Source of the DNA: a virus
Lineage: Duplodnaviria > Caudoviricetes
Direction: 5' to 3' (one strand)
Virus record (IMG/VR): IMGVR_UViG_3300033121_000971
Span: 95,517-159,516 of that record
Length of the DNA: 64,000 nt
Both the position numbers and the translations under genes were made by a program. Positions within the stretch are counted from its first letter, which is position 1, and every line of letters starts with the position of its first letter. Below are positions 52,600 to 63,819 of this stretch, in pieces. Under the pieces are notes generated by a model. That model searched no databases. It worked only from the letters and a program-made list of their open reading frames with translations, and was not told the DNA's origin.

Positions 52600-52674
52600 G
52601 CACGAGTAGCTCAATTTGGTTAGAGCGTCTGCCTGATACGCAGGAGGTTGAAGGTTCAAGTCCTTCTGGGAGTA
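52600..52674 (+). pseudogene. tRNA-Ile(GAT)-like gene with mismatched acceptor stem
   Basis: Canonical D, anticodon (CTGC-CTGATAC-GCAG) and T arms, but 5' GCACGAG faces 3' TGGGAGT. Confidence 0.7.
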
Positions 52675-57213: not shown

Positions 57214-57245
57214 CTTGACTTTACGAAAATTTTTTATTATTATTG
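57214..57245 (+). promoter_or_regulatory. Promoter class A variant driving the TerD-domain gene
   Basis: CTTG-ACTTTACGAAAATTTTTTAT-TATTATTG. Confidence 0.65.
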
Positions 57246-57269
57246 TATATAAGGGAAAAGGAAAATAAA

Positions 57270-59537
57270 ATGGAAACAGGAAATTCAATATATCTAAGAA
57301 GAAAGAACAAAGTAGTAGTAGCTGATGAAAGCAAATTTCATTCCAGTGATAACTTCTATATGATTCTTACAATCCTTCATAATGTGGGAACACTGGGCTA
57401 TACTTTCTCAGAGTCTTTACTTAACAGGTTATCTGAATTGGACTGTGACCAGCTTGCAGATTTTTATAATGACCTCATCCCAGACTTGAAAAAGATGGTC
57501 GGGGCACACAGAGAGTTTGTTCCTATGTATCCTAACTTTCCTAAGCAGGTTATGCAGGCTTCAGATGCGGAGCTGTATGTGAATGCAATGATGCACTATC
57601 TGGGAGACTGGGTAGGATTAAGAATCATGCCAGCTTATGTTAAGAAGGAAAGGAAACCTTTAAAAGGAGATGTAACTTATAAAGTTATTGACCTTGGTTC
57701 AGTTGAAGATTTTGAATCTATTTTTACAAACCTTGTTTCTTCTAATACATCTATATCACAGACTGATAAAGATGACATAGAATGGTTCGTAAAAGTAATG
57801 GGCAATCTGGTACAGGACTTAATTCCAGCATCACTGCCTAACAAGGAAACCATGTCATTTCTATCAGCAAGGCTCCTAGAGCACGTTGATGAGGATTTAG
57901 CTACCATCTTAGTTAGGTCATACGTAAAGACAGCTACAGACGTGCTTAGAATAGCAGTAGGGCTATCTGGAGGAGATGTTTCACTGGCTCAGCCATGTAA
58001 ATTCAGGAATTTTAAGAAGAGAGAGCGTAGATTTATATTAAGCCTTCTGGATGGGCTAGCTACAATAAGTTCAGCTACCGTTAATGAAGATATGCAGAGA
58101 TGGACTGAAAGGTGGAAAAGACTGGTTCAGAAGTTACATGCTGTAGATTTTACAGACAAGTACAAGAGTGCAAATGTTTCTATAAACTTTATATGCAATG
58201 ATATAAAAGTTAAGACCTTCAATTCCAGACTGGAAGAGGCTTATGAACTTAATGACCATGTGAAAGTAGTAAAAATACTTTCTGAAAGAGCTGGAGAGTT
58301 CGCAAGAAATCTGGATAGGTTGTTAAGAAGTGTATTATATTTCAATTCAAAAGCTAATAGAATAGAAGCTTTTGATGTAGTAGGTGAGTTTAGAAAAGTT
58401 GCAGGTTTTGTATCAACACCTGTTCTGTTACAAGTAATTGCTCACTTTAAAAATAAATTAGAAACTGGTAGCAGTAGAGACTTAAGGGTATTTTTACCTA
58501 AAGGTAATATAGCAAAAGTGTGGGGTATGGAGAATAACATATCTGTTAAAATTCCTGCACTTGTTATAGGTTCTGTAATTACCGCTTGTGAAGGAGCATT
58601 AAGAGAGAGATTTTCAAAGCTTCCTTCACTAGGAAATGTTTATCTGGATGAGAGATTAAAAGGTTATGTTGTACCTTTCTCCCAGAGGTCAGCATCTAAA
58701 GCATTGAAGACTGTAAGCCGTGGCTCCAGAATAAAACTGGAAGATGGGAAGAACACAGTAAGATTTTTCATCTGGTGGAAGAATATGGATGGTAGTGTTG
58801 CAAGAAGGTACTCCTATTCTTATGATGGCAGAGTTGACATTGACTTAAGTGCTACAGTTCTGGATGAGGGTTATAATAATCTGGGAACAGTGTCTTACTA
58901 TGCATTAAATAATGAAGTAGGTTGTCACTCTGGAGATATAACCAGTGCACCTAAAGGAGCTTGTGAGTTCATTGACGTGAATATTAAGAAGTATAAGGAA
59001 GCTTACCCTAAGAGTAGATATCTGGTGATGCATATAAATAGTTTTACTGGTCAAATGTTTTCAGACATACCAGAGCTGTTTGCTGGATTCATGATGAGAA
59101 CAAAGCCTAAGTCTGGAGAGATATTTGATGCAAGAACTGTTGAGCAGAAGTTTGATGTAACATCAGAATCAACATATACAACTCCATTGATAATTGATAT
59201 GGAGACAAGAGAAGTTATCTGGATTGATATGCAGTTGAAGGCTGGTAGAAGTTATGGATGGGGAGTTAATAACGTAGCTAATCATTTACAGCAGTCAACA
59301 TTGATGGTAAGGTCTATGGTTGAGATGGTTAAACCTAACCTCTATGACCTGTTCAGGTTGCATGCAGAAGCTAGGGGTGGTGTAGTAGATACAAATACAC
59401 CTTGTACCGTAGCCTATGGGTCAGGAGAGGCAACAGTATTTAATTCTGTTCCTGTAGCTTTTGATAATGGGAATCCAGAATTAAAATGTGTAACCCCATA
59501 TGATATGGATGTAATTATGTCGGAGTATCTGGTGTAA
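57270..59537 (+). CDS. Large helical-domain plus C-terminal TerD-domain protein (possible Ro/TROVE-like RNA-binding protein)
   Basis: TerD motifs RVDIDLSA...HSGDITSAP..ACEFIDV; long helical N-terminal region (PMYPNFP, TATDVLR, RAGEFARNLD); ATG at 57270 follows promoter and AAGGA. Confidence 0.75.
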   Translation: METGNSIYLRRKNKVVVADESKFHSSDNFYMILTILHNVGTLGYTFSESLLNRLSELDCDQLADFYNDLIPDLKKMVGAHREFVPMYPNFPKQVMQASDAELYVNAMMHYLGDWVGLRIMPAYVKKERKPLKGDVTYKVIDLGSVEDFESIFTNLVSSNTSISQTDKDDIEWFVKVMGNLVQDLIPASLPNKETMSFLSARLLEHVDEDLATILVRSYVKTATDVLRIAVGLSGGDVSLAQPCKFRNFKKRERRFILSLLDGLATISSATVNEDMQRWTERWKRLVQKLHAVDFTDKYKSANVSINFICNDIKVKTFNSRLEEAYELNDHVKVVKILSERAGEFARNLDRLLRSVLYFNSKANRIEAFDVVGEFRKVAGFVSTPVLLQVIAHFKNKLETGSSRDLRVFLPKGNIAKVWGMENNISVKIPALVIGSVITACEGALRERFSKLPSLGNVYLDERLKGYVVPFSQRSASKALKTVSRGSRIKLEDGKNTVRFFIWWKNMDGSVARRYSYSYDGRVDIDLSATVLDEGYNNLGTVSYYALNNEVGCHSGDITSAPKGACEFIDVNIKKYKEAYPKSRYLVMHINSFTGQMFSDIPELFAGFMMRTKPKSGEIFDARTVEQKFDVTSESTYTTPLIIDMETREVIWIDMQLKAGRSYGWGVNNVANHLQQSTLMVRSMVEMVKPNLYDLFRLHAEARGGVVDTNTPCTVAYGSGEATVFNSVPVAFDNGNPELKCVTPYDMDVIMSEYLV

Positions 59538-59897
59538 TGGCTAATAGTATAAATGAATGGAAACCAGACCAGAAGAAGCTGGAGAAGGTATGTGAGATAT
59601 TAAATGATTTAGATGTATATGTTAATGTAAGTGAGTTTGCACAAGATAAAGTAAATGAAGCAAAGAGATTAATAAAAGAAGTAATATTTGGTATATGACA
59701 ATTAAAAGAAGTAGCTGGCATTATAAGTTTAGAAAATATGTATACAGTCTTAATGGTTGGAGTAGGATAGTAGATGACATTAGATTCTGGGGGTATTGGG
59801 TTGAGGTGTTCTTTTTTTTACCAATACTTTTACTGTTTCATATGTTATATCGTTTAATAGATGTAATTAAAATAGAAATTAAAGATTAAAAAGTATT

Positions 59898-59963
59898 GAG
59901 GGCTATTTTACAACTTCCTTCTAAAAATTCAGGTGAGAAAAAATAGTTGTAGAGCTTTCCCTC
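59898..59963 (+). ncRNA. Structured RNA motif copy 1
   Basis: GAGGG-CTAT-TTTACAACT-TCCTTCTAAAAA...T-AGTTGTAGA-GCTTT-CCCTC. Confidence 0.8.
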
Positions 59964-59967
59964 TTTT

Positions 59968-60261
59968 GATTATCGGAGTCGAGCAGAGTAGCCTCTGTTC
60001 ATAAATGAAGCGTAGCAATCTTCCTCCCAAGCAGTTTACTTTGTGGCGTGGTAGCCTGTAACACAAGATATTTATATATGTTGAAAACAGCATTAGGAAG
60101 TATCCAGAAGCGAAAAGTTGTATTACGTAATGCCAGTTACCAAAGTAATTAAACATCCGTAATCTTGTTCGTAAGCCAGTTGGCAGGACTGGTTCATTGA
60201 AATAAATCAGTAGTCAAGTTAATAATTTTGTCGGGAGCTGAATAACTAAATGAAGCAAGAT
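59968..60261 (+). ncRNA. Putative structured RNA (~200-300 nt)
   Basis: ORF-free on + strand; closing helix 59968-77/60156-64; several hairpins. Confidence 0.5.
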
Positions 60262-60293
60262 AAACTTTAAATAAAAAGAAATGAAAGGAAAAA

Positions 60294-60452
60294 ATGACAC
60301 ATCAATCAGTAAGTTATATGAAGAGTGGTATTCGTATAGGGGCAGTAATTATAGCAGTAATACTACAGAACTGGCAGTTAGGATTCATAATGCTAGCTGT
60401 AGCAGAGTTTCTGGGTATTCTGGAAGAAGTTGTGGATAAAAGAAAGGAATGA
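60294..60452 (+). CDS. Small membrane protein (not in ORF track)
   Basis: MTHQSVSYMKSGIRI...AEFLGILEEVV; SD AAGGA. Confidence 0.6.
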   Translation: MTHQSVSYMKSGIRIGAVIIAVILQNWQLGFIMLAVAEFLGILEEVVDKRKE

Positions 60453-60729
60453 TATGAAATTTGAAGATATTGTTTTTAGGTTAAACAGTAGTGGGGTCTA
60501 CACTGATAGAGTTTTTACAGAAATAAAACGTGATAAAGATGGTGATGAGTATGACAAAGATGAGGTTGAAGTGGTTGTAGATAAAATAGCATACCAAGTG
60601 TGTTATGATACTGATAGAAAAGATATATATGCAAGTAAAAAGATTACTGTCAATAGGTTAGCAGGTCAGACTCTTATTGAGGCAGTAGAGGAGCAGTTAA
60701 AAGTTATAATTGATTAAATAGAGAGTATA

Positions 60730-60803
60730 TAGGGCTATTGAGTAGCTTCCTTCTAAAAAAATTGACTTGAAATCAAACCAAATTAGTTACTCAGCTTTCC
60801 CTA
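60730..60803 (+). ncRNA. Structured RNA motif copy 2
   Basis: TAGGG-CTAT-TGAGTAGCT-TCCTTCTAAAAA...T-AGTTACTCA-GCTTT-CCCTA. Confidence 0.82.
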
Positions 60804-60810
60804 AGATTAT

Positions 60811-60886
60811 AAAAAGGCTATTGGATAGCTTCCTTCTAAAAATTGGACTGAAAATCAAATGACTTAGTTATCCAGCTTTCCTTTTT
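60811..60886 (+). ncRNA. Structured RNA motif copy 3
   Basis: AAAAAGG-CTAT-TGGATAGCT-TCCTTCTAAAAA...T-AGTTATCCA-GCTTT-CCTTTTT. Confidence 0.82.
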
Positions 60887-60897
60887 CACTATCTAAT

Positions 60898-61306
60898 CCA
60901 GATGAAATCTGGGGAGATTCTGAGAACGCTAACAGACGCAAGTTATACGTACTCTGGAGAGAGCAAGGGCTCCTGATAGTTGAGTTTTAAAGAACTTCTG
61001 CTTAGGTAAATTTCGGCAGTGGGGTACCCAGAATAGTGGCTGGGTCTAGATAAACAGTTCCACTATTGTTTATCAAGTTCTTTATTTAATTTTCCTGATT
61101 GCAACAGGAAAACCTCCCAGACTGGTGCGACTGGGTTCAAAAGGGAGTCACCTGAAAGTATGTAGAAAACGTTATGAACAAGGGTTCTACAGAGACTAAA
61201 GGGGCAAGCACTAATAATTTTTAGAGTACCATAAGAGCGTGGTATTCCGTATACCAGAGGATAGCGACTACAGAACTTAGATGGGGTAAGAGTCCCAACT
61301 GTCTAT
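60898..61306 (+). ncRNA. Putative large structured RNA (~410 nt) with kissing-loop pseudoknot
   Basis: ORF-free, GC-richer, many nested helices; complementary hairpin loops ATAGTGG/CCACTAT. Confidence 0.65.
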
Positions 61307-61322
61307 AAAATTTTTAGATTAT

Positions 61323-61397
61323 ACAGGGCTATTCAATTGCTTCCTTCTAAAAATAATCACTTCCAAATGAAAAACTTAGTGATTGAGCTTTCCCTGT
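61323..61397 (+). ncRNA. Structured RNA motif copy 4
   Basis: ACAGGG-CTAT-TCAATTGCT-TCCTTCTAAAAA...T-AGTGATTGA-GCTTT-CCCTGT. Confidence 0.82.
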
Positions 61398-61501
61398 GGA
61401 ACGCTAGCCATCTTAACAATGGTGGAGTCAGAAAATAAACAACCCAGAGCTGTCTTGATTGGCAGAATCGGCTGGGGTGATAAATAGACCTTGAGCGTTC
61501 C
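61398..61501 (+). ncRNA. Putative 104-nt structured RNA
   Basis: Closing stem GGAACGCT/AGCGTTCC with internal hairpins. Confidence 0.55.
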
Positions 61502-61509
61502 GTAATTTT

Positions 61510-61539
61510 AGGCTACTTTAATTAGTAGCCTTTTTCTTT
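61510..61539 (+). terminator. Rho-independent terminator closing the ncRNA cluster
   Basis: AGGCTACT-TTAATT-AGTAGCCT followed by TTTTCTTT. Confidence 0.8.
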
Positions 61540-61556
61540 GGGGGCAAATTTTTGCA

Positions 61557-61587
61557 TTGTTTTTCAAAATAATTTCCCCTATACTTG
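61557..61587 (+). promoter_or_regulatory. Promoter class B variant
   Basis: TTG-N20-TATACTTG followed by AAGGAG SD. Confidence 0.65.
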
Positions 61588-61615
61588 TATATAAATAATT
61601 AAGGAGATAACTGAA

Positions 61616-63819
61616 ATGATAGAACTACAAGGCTTCCCAAAAAAGAAAGTGTTAAAGTTCAGAAGCTTTTTAATCAAAGGTTATGCTGATGTTATGCACT
61701 GGGGTGGTGGAAGAGGGTTAGTTCCAATGAACTCTTTTCGGATGACTGATGGTACAGACTTTAATGAAGTGCTGGAGAAAAGTTTAAATGATGGTGGCTT
61801 TGGTGTACAATCTATCAATGGGGCTATTGTGGAAATCTACTGTGACTACAGTGGGTATCAGGAGTTGCTCCAGACTGGTACAGTTAACGATGTTCTCCCA
61901 GAGTTCTGGGAGAGATACACAGAAGGAGAGTTTGACTAATGGCATACAGTGACACATACTTCGATAGCTTCTCAGGTGCAGTACAGCATGCCAGAATGAA
62001 TGTTGAAGCTGAAGGTTATGTTATAAATGAAGATGACTGGTTCAGAGAAGTGACTGTAGGAAATGGTGCTCCCAATGCTGGAGTTACTACCAGAGCTACA
62101 GTAGGTCTATCTAAGGATGGAAAGGAAGTTAAGAAGGCATTGCACTTGACAGTTTATAATCTGGGAGTAGAATCTGGAAGACCTTTCGAATTAAATTATT
62201 ATGTAAGCTGATGATAAAAATAGAAAAACATGATGCTAACGGGCTTAAGAATGATAACATTCAAATAGAAACAGATAGCTTGGAAACTTACTGGGATGCA
62301 AAAGCTTTATTTTTTGATTTGAAAGTTAACTTTCCAGAACTAGGGTTTTTCATGCAAGGTGATTCTTGTTTTGTCGGGAAGTACTGGTTGATGTTTGAAA
62401 GCTGGTCTGACAATCATGAAATGTTCGAAAGAGCATTTGAGTTTGCAAAAGAAAGACTTAAGGAGATAGTATGAGCAAATCAAAAAAAGAAGTAATAGTA
62501 GCCTTAATCCCAATACTACTTGTAATAGCAGTAGTAATAACTTTCAAATATGACTTAATCAAGATGAGCGGTCTTCCATATAAAGTCTGTAATTTGGACA
62601 ATGGTGGAACATTACAGCAGACATATCATGTAAGAGACCATTTTGAAAGAGTTGACATAGAAACAAAAGTTATGGTAGAGAAATGTCACAGCACTTCTGG
62701 GAATCTAGGTGATACATATTGTAATGATGTAGCAGTAGATGAGATAGTCTACAAGCTTGTATCAAAGGACAGTGTTGAGTTCTATAAAGAAAAAGCTATC
62801 AACGAATTGAAGTTTAAATATAACAAGCATATATTCCCAGAGGAGAATTAGATAAAATGATAGAATTATTAAAACAAATAGGTTGGACAGAGTTGTATCC
62901 TCAGACACTTGAGAGGCTACAATGGTTCCGAAACAGATTAAGAGATTACTACTCAGAGGAAGAAGTGCCAGAAGAGGAACTGGTAATTGCTGTAGTATAT
63001 GGTTTTGGTAAGTATGGGCAGAGCATGGTGTTTAATATTTACAGAATGACTAGGATGTGTTGTAACGGAAGTGACTTCTTAACAACTTTTGAACGGTTTA
63101 CAGAAGCATTTAAGGAGACAGTACCAGACACATATGCTAAAATGAAGCCATCGCTTTTCATTGATTTATTTATTGAGTATATGTATAGCAGAGTTATAAA
63201 GGGAGAATATCCAGAATAGGAGTTAAATTATGGAAGACCAAAAACAAAAAGAATATAAAAGTCTTGAGGATGACATTACTAACATTTTAGTATTTGCCCA
63301 GAACTCTAATACATCTATTAGTAAAAGACTGGATGAGTTTGAAGGCAGAACTGAAACTAAATTTGTATTGTCAGATGGGGACAAACTAGTAGAACTTATT
63401 GTAAAAGAAGCCAAGTGAAGAGAAAGATAAAATATTTCAGATTGGAGCAGAGGTATGGTGACGACTGGGTTGGGATATTTAAGTCTACTGCCTGTTCACA
63501 AAATAAGTTAATGGATTTGACTACAGGTTTAAGACAGTCTCACAATCATCCAGACAGTGACAGTAAAAACCTTTATGATGAAAGCTGGAAGTGCGGTCTA
63601 TTTTATTTTACTACTGACTTTATAGTAGACTACTTTGTATTTATGGAATTGAGACAGCTCATCCAGCACGATGCAGTTCGTGTATTACTTGTATTTGAAG
63701 ACTCAAAAGATTATACTGTGTACTGGGAGGGGAGGTCTGGGTTGCAGGTGACACTTGAGAATCTGGAGGAGCAGGATTATGAATTTAATAAGAGTTTTAT
63801 TTTAAATAGACAGCTTTAA
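61616..63819 (+). other. Block of short hypothetical ORFs
   Basis: Seven coupled + strand ORFs with no recognised function. Confidence 0.6.

What the first reader, a model, noticed from the sequence alone, without database searches (positions are those of the whole stretch)
60761..61372. Apical loops of the repeats look like different tRNA anticodon loops (Ser-UGA, Phe-GAA, Gly-UCC)
Seen: copy 2 has TTGA-CTTGAAA-TCAA, whose 7-nt loop is identical to that of the phage tRNA-Ser(TGA). Copy 3 has TTGGA-CTGAAAA-TCAAA, a canonical tRNA-Phe loop with one stem mismatch. Copy 4 has TCA-CTTCCAA-A-TGA, the same 7-mer as the phage tRNA-Gly(TCC) loop. All fit the C32-U33-NNN-A37-A38 rule. Copy 1 (TTC-AGGTGA-GAA) does not fit. 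Inference: a constant protein-binding scaffold displays interchangeable anticodon loops, as decoys or sensors for anticodon nucleases (PrrC/RloC/PARIS-type defences) or as substrates for tRNA-modifying enzymes. The stems are short, so chance resemblance is possible.
Basis: partly seen in the sequence, partly recalled or inferred. Interest (0 to 1): 0.85.

Follow-up and report, generated by a model that had tools for sequence, protein, structure and literature searches.

The report
Anticodon-like loops on Y-like phage RNAs
Four small folded RNAs next to a Ro60-shaped phage protein share one constant handle and differ at the tip; in this RNA family the tip is often a copy of part of a tRNA (here most clearly a serine-type anticodon arm), which suggests an undescribed RNA-protein particle that presents tRNA look-alikes.

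Summary
The four repeats (59897-59964, 60729-60804, 60812-60885, 61323-61397, + strand) belong to a large structured-RNA family that is not in Rfam. It has a constant handle (P1, an 8-bp P2, invariant joints) and a variable tip. In 75 of 80 phage loci and about 76 of 80 bacterial loci chosen by protein alone, the RNA lies beside, and on the same strand as, a homologue of the upstream 764-aa gene. That protein has a Ro60-like helical fold plus a TerD domain.

Tips with a 7-nt C-U-N-N-N-A-A hairpin loop are strongly enriched: 22 of 167 non-redundant phage RNAs against 1.5 in shuffles. T-arm hairpins are enriched too, and some tips are whole YrlA-like tRNA bodies.

- Copy 2 (Ser-UGA type) is well supported.
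- Copy 3 (Phe-GAA type) is weakly supported.
- Copy 4 (Gly-UCC) is probably not an anticodon mimic.
- Copy 1 is not one.

A decoy or sensor function is untested. This scan had already found the same RNA-protein pairing on other genomes. What is new here is the enrichment of anticodon-arm tips.

The parts
57243..59537 (+). Gene for the 764-aa partner protein: a helical N-terminal part with a Ro60-like fold and a C-terminal TerD-fold domain. The true start may lie a few codons downstream.
   Evidence: ORF. phrog_33734, function unknown. NCBIfam NF041916 at E 8e-124, below its cut-off. AF2 models. TerD fold Z 16. Ro60 chains are the only two hits with Z of 8 or more among 48,161 chains. Homologues lie beside the RNA in loci fetched by the RNA pattern alone.
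59897..59964 (+). RNA copy 1: handle plus the tip TTC-AGGTGA-GAA (59928-59939). It is not anticodon-like and resembles a recurrent UUC..GGUGA..AAA loop class seen in bacterial members.
   Evidence: CM hit at 66.1 bits. P1 5 of 6 and P2 8 of 8 positions paired. Similar loops in L236 and L304.
60729..60804 (+). RNA copy 2: handle plus a 4-bp stem and 7-nt loop (60762-60776) identical in its loop to tRNA-Ser(UGA). This is the best anticodon-arm mimic in the window.
   Evidence: CM hit at 72.1 bits. Loop equals the phage tRNA-Ser loop. Hairpin identical and RNA 96% identical in L150. The same loop sits on different, complementary stems in L128, L132 and L221.
60812..60885 (+). RNA copy 3: handle plus the hairpin at 60843-60859 with a CTGAAAA loop (Phe-GAA type) and one stem mismatch. 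The orthologous RNA in L150 carries a full YrlA-like tRNA body with a CCAGA/TCTGG stem followed by A-CTGAA.
   Evidence: CM hit at 73.8 bits. L150 4203-4342 has the same P1 and P2 and a 95-nt insert that matches Rfam YrlA at 32.8 bits. The CTGAAAA loop recurs in L130, L127 and L209.
61323..61397 (+). RNA copy 4: handle plus a 3-bp stem and 8-nt loop (61357-61370) that contains the tRNA-Gly(UCC) 7-mer. Probably not an anticodon mimic.
   Evidence: CM hit at 74.4 bits. The orthologous loop in L150 is CAGCCAAA. A TCA-CTTCCAA-TGA variant exists in a Paenibacillus locus, L280.
60886..61322 (+). ORF-free, GC-richer stretch between copies 3 and 4. Most of it is conserved in L150, with a block of about 90 nt present only in the window. 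No Rfam match. Its role is unknown and it probably lies on the same transcript.
   Evidence: No ORF. Rfam found nothing at E up to 10. blastn against L150: 82-88% identity in two blocks.
61510..61531 (+). Intrinsic-terminator-like hairpin with a T run. It closes the non-coding array and is conserved in L150.
   Evidence: Terminator scan. 97% identical block in L150.

Best explanation
The four repeats are genes for small modular RNAs built on the plan of bacterial Y RNAs.

The constant handle consists of P1, a CUAU/GCUUU internal loop, an 8-bp P2 and the invariant UUCCUUCU stretch. I infer that it is the binding site for the protein encoded just upstream, which has a Ro60-like helical fold with a TerD domain in place of Ro60's vWA domain.

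The tip that closes P2 is a swappable module. Across the family it is often a copy of part of a tRNA: an anticodon arm, a T arm, or a whole L-shaped body with a closed acceptor stem as in YrlA. I infer that these modules bring tRNA-recognising factors (nucleases, modification or repair enzymes) to the particle, or hold them away from real tRNAs.

In this window:
- copy 2 presents a Ser(UGA)-type anticodon arm;
- copy 3 presents a degraded Phe(GAA)-type loop that looks like what is left of a tRNA-like body;
- copies 1 and 4 carry other loop classes.

What is shown: the RNA structure, the gene-RNA association and the enrichment of tRNA-like tips. What is inferred: the protein binds the handle, the RNAs are expressed and processed, and the tips engage tRNA-binding factors.
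For: Structure: across 22 members, 91.9% of P1/P2 cells form standard pairs. The covariation score is 0.93 against 0.20 in shuffles, 12 of 14 pairs show changes on both sides, and slid controls give 35-52% paired. G-U pairs, and the fact that every hit lies on the gene strand, point to RNA rather than DNA.

Association with the protein:
- Loci fetched by the RNA pattern alone encode homologues of the 764-aa protein.
- Of 80 phage loci fetched by protein alone, 75 have the RNA. All 274 hits are on the gene strand and flank the gene.
- The 80 bacterial loci gave 138 hits, all on the gene strand, mostly 1-2 copies just upstream.
- No other neighbouring gene is conserved.

Protein:
- TerD fold, Z 16; Pfam TerD matches 2 of 12 homologues.
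- For the N-terminal model (pLDDT 88), the only two chains with Z of 8 or more among 48,161 are Ro60 of phage phiLo (Z 10.7, 271 residues aligned, rmsd 4.1) and D. radiodurans Rsr (Z 10.2, 286 aligned).

tRNA mimicry at the tip:
- Sub-threshold Rfam YrlA matches in relatives: 43 and 42 bits in L138 and 33 bits in L150.
- CT-NNN-AA hairpins: 22 of 167 against 1.5. T-loop hairpins: 18 against 0.6.
- Stems of these hairpins are mostly 4-5 bp.
- The commonest loops, CTTTTAA (6) and CTTGAAA (4), sit on differing complementary stems.
- The third variable loop position is A or U in 28 of 29 cases, while the first two are G or C in about 45%.

Window copy 2 is the best-conserved segment against L150.

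Context: Hen1-Pnkp RNA-repair genes lie directly downstream of the homologue in three Paenibacillus loci. Phage Ro60 with adjacent Y-like RNAs is an established arrangement (PMC4201824, PMC12135203).
Against: - There is no direct evidence that the protein binds the RNA or that the RNAs are made.
- The Ro60 link rests on predicted fold only. Pfam TROVE does not match, and a profile-profile comparison with 17 canonical TROVE proteins is not significant (P 0.39). Z of about 10 for helical repeats can reflect a common arrangement only (note).
- The tip hairpins in the window are 3-4 A/U-rich pairs and are not predicted to be stable.
- About three quarters of family members carry neither an anticodon-like nor a T-loop hairpin, and most bacterial members have an unstructured loop. 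tRNA mimicry therefore cannot be the core function of the particle.
- The Hen1-Pnkp linkage is seen in only 3 of 80 loci.
- The position-36 pattern was noticed after looking at the data.
Confidence: 0.55

Rival explanations
1. The C-U-N-N-W-A-A loops are generic U-turn loops that serve RNA-RNA kissing or antisense recognition, or simply bind the partner protein. Their likeness to anticodon loops is convergent and has nothing to do with tRNA-recognising factors.
For: The loops are short and A/U-rich. Their third variable position is nearly always A or U, which could be a motif of the family itself. U-turn YUNR loops are common in antisense RNAs (my own knowledge). No partner was tested.
Against: The same insertion point carries T-arm hairpins and whole tRNA-like bodies that match Rfam YrlA. 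One member (L063) has TTGA-CTTTTAA-TCAA, which matches the anticodon arm of E. coli tRNA-Lys(UUU) as I recall it, stem included (for the sequence; the tRNA sequence is from memory). In tRNA-like members the stem is often followed by C/A-U-NNN-A, as in an opened anticodon loop (read by eye).
Confidence: 0.15
2. The anticodon-like tips are evolutionary debris. tRNA-like bodies were inserted into the handle, later deletions left stumps that still carry anticodon-loop letters, and the stumps have no function of their own.
For: Window copy 3 and its orthologue in L150 share P1 and P2, but L150 has the full tRNA-like body while the window keeps only TTGGA-CTGAA... with a mismatched stem. The tips are weakly folded. 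The array changes fast between two related phages.
Against: The copy-2 hairpin is identical in L150 while the linker next to it changed, and copy 2 is the most conserved stretch of the region. The CTTGAAA and CTTTTAA loops recur in distant phages on different but complementary stems, which implies selection for the hairpin.
Confidence: 0.15
3. For the loops in this window the resemblance to anticodon loops is chance in A/T-rich sequence.
For: Stems are 3-4 bp. Copy 4 has an 8-nt loop and its orthologue lacks the U. Copy 3 has a stem mismatch. Copy 1 does not fit. Three loops are too few for a test.
Against: Enrichment across the family is about 15-fold or more over shuffles, and no shuffle reached the observed count. 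The copy-2 loop recurs in four independent members.
Confidence: 0.1
4. The repeats act as DNA (promoters, iterons, recombination sites) and not as RNA.
For: They are dispersed direct repeats in a non-coding region.
Against: Two helices covary, with G-T pairs that would be A-C mismatches on the other strand. All 412 hits in protein-selected loci are on the gene strand. Tips include tRNA-like bodies.
Confidence: 0.03

Closest known systems
Bacterial and phage Ro60 (Rsr) with Y RNAs: YrlA/YrlB, Yrn1 (PMC4201824) and phiLo phage Ro60 with Yrl1/Yrl2 (PMC12135203)
   Same: A ring-shaped helical RNA-binding protein is encoded next to one or several small RNAs. The RNAs are modular, with a protein-binding stem and an effector module that in YrlA is a tRNA mimic with a closed acceptor stem. 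The arrangement occurs in phages. Some relatives of the window RNAs match Rfam YrlA through the tRNA-like part.
   Different: The protein is not detected by Pfam TROVE and has a TerD domain where Ro60 has vWA/MIDAS. The RNA handle has its own invariant letters and lacks the GNCGAA / CGAA Ro-binding motif. Arrays reach 8 or more RNAs per locus. Tips include bare anticodon-arm and T-arm hairpins, which are not described for Y RNAs. Three of five bacterial genomes checked carry a canonical Ro60 as well, so this is a separate system.
NCBIfam NF041916, MXAN_6230/SCO0854 family RING domain-containing protein (uncharacterised)
   Same: Clear sequence homology over the helical and TerD parts (E 8e-124). 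Predicted structures are alike in the ESM Atlas.
   Different: The score is below the equivalog cut-off (414.6 against 600 bits). The window protein lacks the N-terminal RING finger, which one of 12 homologues has (Prok-RING_4). I found no paper on this family in the library.
Anticodon-arm mimics in other RNAs: the E. coli thrS mRNA operator bound by ThrRS, and the tRNA-like element of the HIV-1 genome bound by LysRS (my own knowledge, not checked here)
   Same: A hairpin with an anticodon-like 7-nt loop, embedded in a non-tRNA, is read by a tRNA-binding protein.
   Different: Those are single cis-regulatory elements in an mRNA or a genome. They are not a panel of stand-alone RNAs on a common protein-binding handle.
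Phage tRNAs that counter tRNA-targeting defences: PARIS/AriB and tRNA-Lys (PMC11464382, PMC12409363), and retron and other effectors (PMC11555353)
   Same: The phage-encoded RNAs carry anticodon loops of tRNAs that defence nucleases attack. The Lys(UUU)-type loop is the commonest mimic in this family. The RNA arrays often lie in or beside phage tRNA clusters.
   Different: Those are complete, chargeable tRNAs that replace the cleaved ones. The RNAs here cannot be aminoacylated, and any decoy role is hypothetical.

Membership tests
YrlA / bacterial Y RNA (Rfam RF02553) | Score at or above the Rfam gathering threshold (69 bits) | tested here: not met
   No match in the window at the gathering threshold or at E up to 10. 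Relatives reach 43, 42 and 33 bits, through the tRNA-like part only.
YrlA / bacterial Y RNA (Rfam RF02553) | tRNA-like module with D arm, T arm and closed acceptor stem | tested here: not met
   None of the four window copies has it. It is present in family members such as L150 4203-4342, L138 and L134.
YrlA / bacterial Y RNA (Rfam RF02553) | Ro-binding motif GNCGAAN0-1G / CGAA on the 5' strand (PMC4201824, PMC12135203) | tested here: not met
   The four copies contain no CGAA. Their conserved letters are GGCUAU, UUCCUUCU and GCUUUCC.
YrlA / bacterial Y RNA (Rfam RF02553) | Encoded next to a Ro60 (TROVE) gene | tested here: inconclusive
   The neighbouring gene has a Ro60-like predicted fold but no TROVE sequence match.
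Ro60 / TROVE (Pfam PF05731) | Sequence match to the TROVE profile | tested here: not met
   No Pfam hit at E up to 10. No TROVE match in the six-frame search of the phage record. hhalign against 17 TROVE proteins gave P 0.39.
Ro60 / TROVE (Pfam PF05731) | HEAT-repeat ring fold | tested here: inconclusive
   Ro60 chains are the top two of 48,161 (Z 10.7 and 10.2; 271 and 286 residues aligned; rmsd 4.1 and 4.6). For helical repeats a Z under about 13 may reflect a common arrangement only.
Ro60 / TROVE (Pfam PF05731) | C-terminal vWA domain with MIDAS | tested here: not met
   Residues 497-692 have a TerD fold (Z 16.1 to 2qng, 15.8 to 2qz7).
TerD domain (Pfam PF02342) | TerD beta-sandwich fold and profile match | tested here: met
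   Fold Z 13-16 to five TerD structures. The Pfam profile matches 2 of 12 homologues (best E 1.7e-5), though not the window protein itself.
tRNA anticodon arm (mimicry, not membership) | 7-nt loop with pyrimidine-32, U33, purine-37, on a stem of about 5 bp | tested here: inconclusive
   Copy 2: 7-nt loop that fits, on a 4-bp stem. Copy 3: loop fits, 5-position stem with one mismatch. Copy 4: 8-nt loop on a 3-bp stem. Copy 1: no fit. None is stable in the energy model.
tRNA anticodon arm (mimicry, not membership) | Loop frame conserved in relatives, with covarying stems | tested here: inconclusive
   Met for copy 2: identical in L150, and the same loop sits on other stems in L128, L132 and L221. 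Not met for copy 4: U33 is lost in L150. Copy 3's tip is replaced by a tRNA body in L150.
NCBIfam NF041916 (MXAN_6230/SCO0854 RING protein) | Score at or above the equivalog cut-off, and an N-terminal RING finger | tested here: not met
   414.6 bits against a cut-off of 600. The match covers profile positions 382-757 as its best stretch, and the window protein has no RING hit.

The most novel reading that the evidence does not exclude
Phages use this Ro60-like/TerD particle as a rack of tRNA-part decoys or sentinels. Each RNA of the array presents the anticodon arm (Lys-UUU, Ser-UGA, Phe-GAA, Cys-GCA and others), the T arm or the whole body of a tRNA that host defence nucleases attack. The particle would then soak up, report or repair anticodon-nuclease attack. 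The restriction of the mimics to loops with A or U before A37, the classes that carry i6A or t6A in real tRNAs, may reflect what those nucleases or the modification enzymes read.
Probability: 0.18. Interest if true: 0.9.

Novelty: new variant of a known kind. Interest (0 to 1): 0.68.

Why it matters
Ro60 with Y RNAs is a long-studied particle whose bacterial role is still unclear. The only known tRNA mimicry in it is the whole-body mimic of YrlA.

Here a sister system shows the same logic taken further. It is widespread: 2,880 protein clusters at 50% identity, many bacterial phyla and large phages. It has one handle and many exchangeable tips, a sizeable share of which are single tRNA arms.

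That gives concrete, cheap experiments on what such particles recognise. It also links them to the current question of how phages cope with tRNA-cleaving defences.

For annotation, it identifies roughly 70-nt RNA genes that no current library finds, and it explains long non-coding gaps next to phage tRNA clusters.

Tried and rejected
- Rfam over the whole window at the gathering threshold, and over 60600-61700 at E up to 10: nothing but tRNAs and noise.
- blastn of 59800-61700 against GenBank phages: no match.
- The first collection scan, with a 14-nt pattern, was too unspecific; nearly all hits were chance. The 18-base pattern with a fixed gap worked.
- Pfam, PADLOC and PDB sequence searches of the protein: no informative hit.
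- Protein-atlas search by features: uninformative.
- Profile-profile comparison of the protein family with 3 and then 17 canonical TROVE proteins: not significant. Homology to Ro60 is therefore not shown by sequence.
- Search for a conserved neighbouring protein gene by all-against-all blastp of flank ORFs: none beyond the protein itself. Hen1-Pnkp is adjacent in only 3 of 80 bacterial loci and in no phage locus.
- A search for further copies upstream of the gene in the window, with filters off: none, exactly four copies.
- Automatic detection of the anticodon stem in tRNA-like tips was unreliable. I read those cases by eye.
- DNA-repeat and chance readings were considered and rejected for the family (see the rival explanations).

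Full report
**What is there.** The window is the last 64 kb of a 159.5-kb IMG/VR phage record. A motif of about 70 nt occurs exactly four times, all on the + strand and all downstream of a 764-aa ORF at 57243-59537. The copies lie at 59897-59964, 60729-60804, 60812-60885 and 61323-61397 (filters off).
- Copy 2 has TTGA, the 7-nt loop CTTGAAA, and TCAA.
- Copy 3 has TTGGA, CTGAAAA, and TCAAA, with one mismatch in the stem.
- Copy 4 has TCA, the 8-nt loop CTTCCAAA, and TGA.
- Copy 1 has TTC-AGGTGA-GAA.

The record has no tRNA-Phe gene. Energy folding recovers only the two long helices, not the tip hairpins.

**The repeat is a structured RNA.** Each copy has the same layout:
- P1 of 5-6 bp, whose inner pairs are the GG of GGCUAU with the CC of GCUUUCC;
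- a CUAU/GCUUU internal loop;
- an 8-bp P2;
- an invariant UUCCUUCU stretch, mostly followed by A's;
- a variable tip;
- a conserved UUA just before the 3' strand of P2.

In an alignment of 22 members from several phages, 91.9% of cells pair and 12 of 14 pairs change on both sides. The covariation score is 0.93 against 0.20 in shuffles, and slid controls give 35-52% pairing. Part of that set was picked with a pairing filter. The four window copies and the later covariance-model hits were not, and they show the same helices. Rfam has no such family.

**It travels with one protein.** A scan of viral contigs with an 18-base pattern from the handle returned 27 loci. About 25 of the phage loci fetched by RNA pattern encode a homologue (24-44% identity) of the 764-aa protein. 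I then ran the reverse test.
- Of 80 phage loci fetched by protein alone, 75 have the RNA. All 274 hits are on the gene strand and lie just before or after the gene.
- The 80 bacterial loci (Paenibacillus, Obscuribacterales, Armatimonadota, Acidobacteriota, Verrucomicrobiota and others) gave 138 hits, all on the gene strand, usually one or two copies just upstream.
- No other neighbouring gene is conserved.

The unit is therefore the protein plus its RNA or RNAs. This scan has reported the same pairing on several other genomes. I reached it here from the RNA side, with one lead from a note on this window.

**The protein.**
- It belongs to phrog_33734, of unknown function.
- It is homologous to NCBIfam NF041916, an uncharacterised "RING domain-containing" family. 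It scores below that family's cut-off and lacks the RING.
- The family has 2,880 clusters at 50% identity.
- The C-terminal 200 residues have a TerD fold (Z 13-16). Two of 12 homologues match Pfam TerD.
- The N-terminal 486 residues, modelled at pLDDT 88, were aligned to 48,161 PDB representatives. The only two chains with Z of 8 or more are Ro60 of Thermus phage phiLo (Z 10.7, 271 residues, rmsd 4.1) and D. radiodurans Rsr (Z 10.2, 286 residues). Xenopus Ro follows at Z 7.1 over 270 residues.

Sequence profiles do not confirm the Ro60 link, so "Ro60-like" is a statement about the predicted fold only. Three of five bacterial genomes with this protein also have a canonical TROVE protein elsewhere, so this is a parallel system.

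**The tips.** I parsed 220 unique phage members into 167 non-redundant ones.
- The tips range from 5 to about 100 nt.
- Some are circularly permuted tRNA bodies, in the order T arm, acceptor stem closed by a tetraloop, then D arm. They match Rfam YrlA below its threshold.
- Eighteen have a T-loop hairpin, against 0.6 in shuffles.
- Twenty-two have a hairpin with a 7-nt C-U-N-N-N-A-A loop, against 1.5 (maximum 6 in 500 shuffles). With stems of 4 or more bp the count is 18 against 0.53.
- Bacterial members are mostly minimal, with a median tip of 21 nt and usually no hairpin. They still show 7 of 72 against 0.39.
- Stems of these hairpins are mostly 4-5 bp.
- The commonest loops are the Lys(UUU) type (6) and the Ser(UGA) type (4), each on different complementary stems.
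- After looking at the data, I noticed that the third variable position is A or U in 28 of 29 cases, while the first two are G or C in about 45% (Fisher P 5e-5). In real tRNAs, A37 after A36 or U36 is the site of i6A or t6A (my own knowledge).
- Read by eye, in several tRNA-like members the helix that corresponds to the anticodon stem is followed by C/A-U-NNN-A before the handle resumes. The handle thus appears to sit in the 3' side of an opened anticodon loop.

**The four window copies, tested against the closest relative.** L150 is a 5.2-kb contig whose protein is 69% identical. It has four orthologous RNAs.
- Copy 2 keeps the whole hairpin and is 96% identical overall, the most conserved stretch of the region.
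- Copy 4's loop becomes CAGCCAAA and loses the U. A 7-nt version of the window loop exists in a Paenibacillus locus (L280), so this loop class is old but does not keep the anticodon frame.
- Copy 3 has the same P1 and P2, but its tip in L150 is a 95-nt tRNA-like body. The stem of that body, CCAGA/TCTGG, and the following A-CTGAA suggest a Phe-type origin. The window version looks like a deletion product.
- Copy 1 differs in most loop letters and resembles a GGUGA-containing loop class of bacterial members.

**Reading.** The best-supported model is a Y-RNA-like particle. The handle binds the Ro60-like/TerD protein, and the tip is an effector module that is often a tRNA part.

Three things remain inference: what the tRNA parts do, that the protein binds the handle, and that the RNAs are expressed. 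The phiLo Ro60 particle engages host PNPase through its Y-like RNAs (PMC12135203), and YrlA is handled by tRNA enzymes (PMC4201824). By analogy, anticodon-arm tips would engage factors that read anticodon loops.

tRNA-cleaving defences, and phage tRNAs that evade them, are well documented (PMC11464382, PMC11555353, PMC12409363). The arrays sit in or near phage tRNA clusters. Three Paenibacillus loci have Hen1-Pnkp repair genes immediately downstream. These points make a decoy, sentinel or repair-platform role plausible, but none of them is a test.

The rivals are laid out with their odds in the Rival explanations section: generic U-turn loops, debris of deleted tRNA bodies, and chance for the weaker copies.

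**Limits.**
- No expression data were available.
- All structure evidence is comparative or predicted.
- Redundancy was removed with a simple 80% similarity filter, not with a tree.
- The shuffles control for composition, not for shared descent.
- The stem differences among members with the same loop argue against descent alone, but I did not test that statistically.

Noticed in passing
window 60886-61322; L150 4343-4799: An ORF-free, hairpin-rich stretch of 437 nt between RNA copies 3 and 4 is 82-88% conserved in the closest relative, except for a block of about 90 nt (about 60993-61084) present only in the window. It has no Rfam match. Possibly a further large non-coding RNA on the same transcript.
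   Followed up: partly
window 59965-60280; L150 3398-3661: The non-coding stretch directly after copy 1 is about 71% conserved in L150. A 75-aa ORF on the minus strand (59929-60156) overlaps it and is probably spurious.
   Followed up: partly
window 61398-61501: A 104-nt segment closed by an 8-bp long-range stem (GGAACGCT / AGCGTTCC) sits between copy 4 and the terminator. L150 lacks it; there copy 4 runs almost straight into the terminator.
   Followed up: partly
L150 3862-3999 and 4084-4200: Where the window has a 95-aa ORF (60430-60717), the relative has a tRNA-like gene with an insertion of about 82 nt in the anticodon region (Rfam tRNA, 34.5 bits). Between its copies 2 and 3 the relative also has a 117-nt stem-closed element that contains CUGAUGAG. 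It has no hammerhead match at E up to 0.1.
   Followed up: partly
window 60294-60452; L150 3691-3849: A 52-aa hydrophobic ORF embedded in the RNA array is conserved in the relative, so it is probably a real small membrane protein gene.
   Followed up: no
L292 6001-9080; also L272 and L289: In three Paenibacillus genomes the Ro60-like/TerD gene is followed directly by Hen1 (RNA 3'-end methyltransferase) and Pnkp (kinase-phosphatase-ligase), the bacterial RNA-repair pair.
   Followed up: partly
L127 4668-5046 and 7194-7585 (same contig as L169): One phage carries eight family RNAs around the gene. They include a Lys(UUU)-type arm, a Phe(GAA)-type arm, a long hairpin and a whole tRNA-like body, so a single locus holds a mixed panel of tips.
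   Followed up: partly
window 52600-52674: Rfam's tRNA model finds a tRNA here (50.8 bits) that ARAGORN did not list.
   Followed up: no
handle of all copies, e.g. window 60746-60757: The invariant single-stranded UUCCUUCU(A) stretch of the handle is pyrimidine-rich and recalls the 3' tail of 16S rRNA (from memory, not tested). The reason for its strict conservation is unexplained.
   Followed up: no
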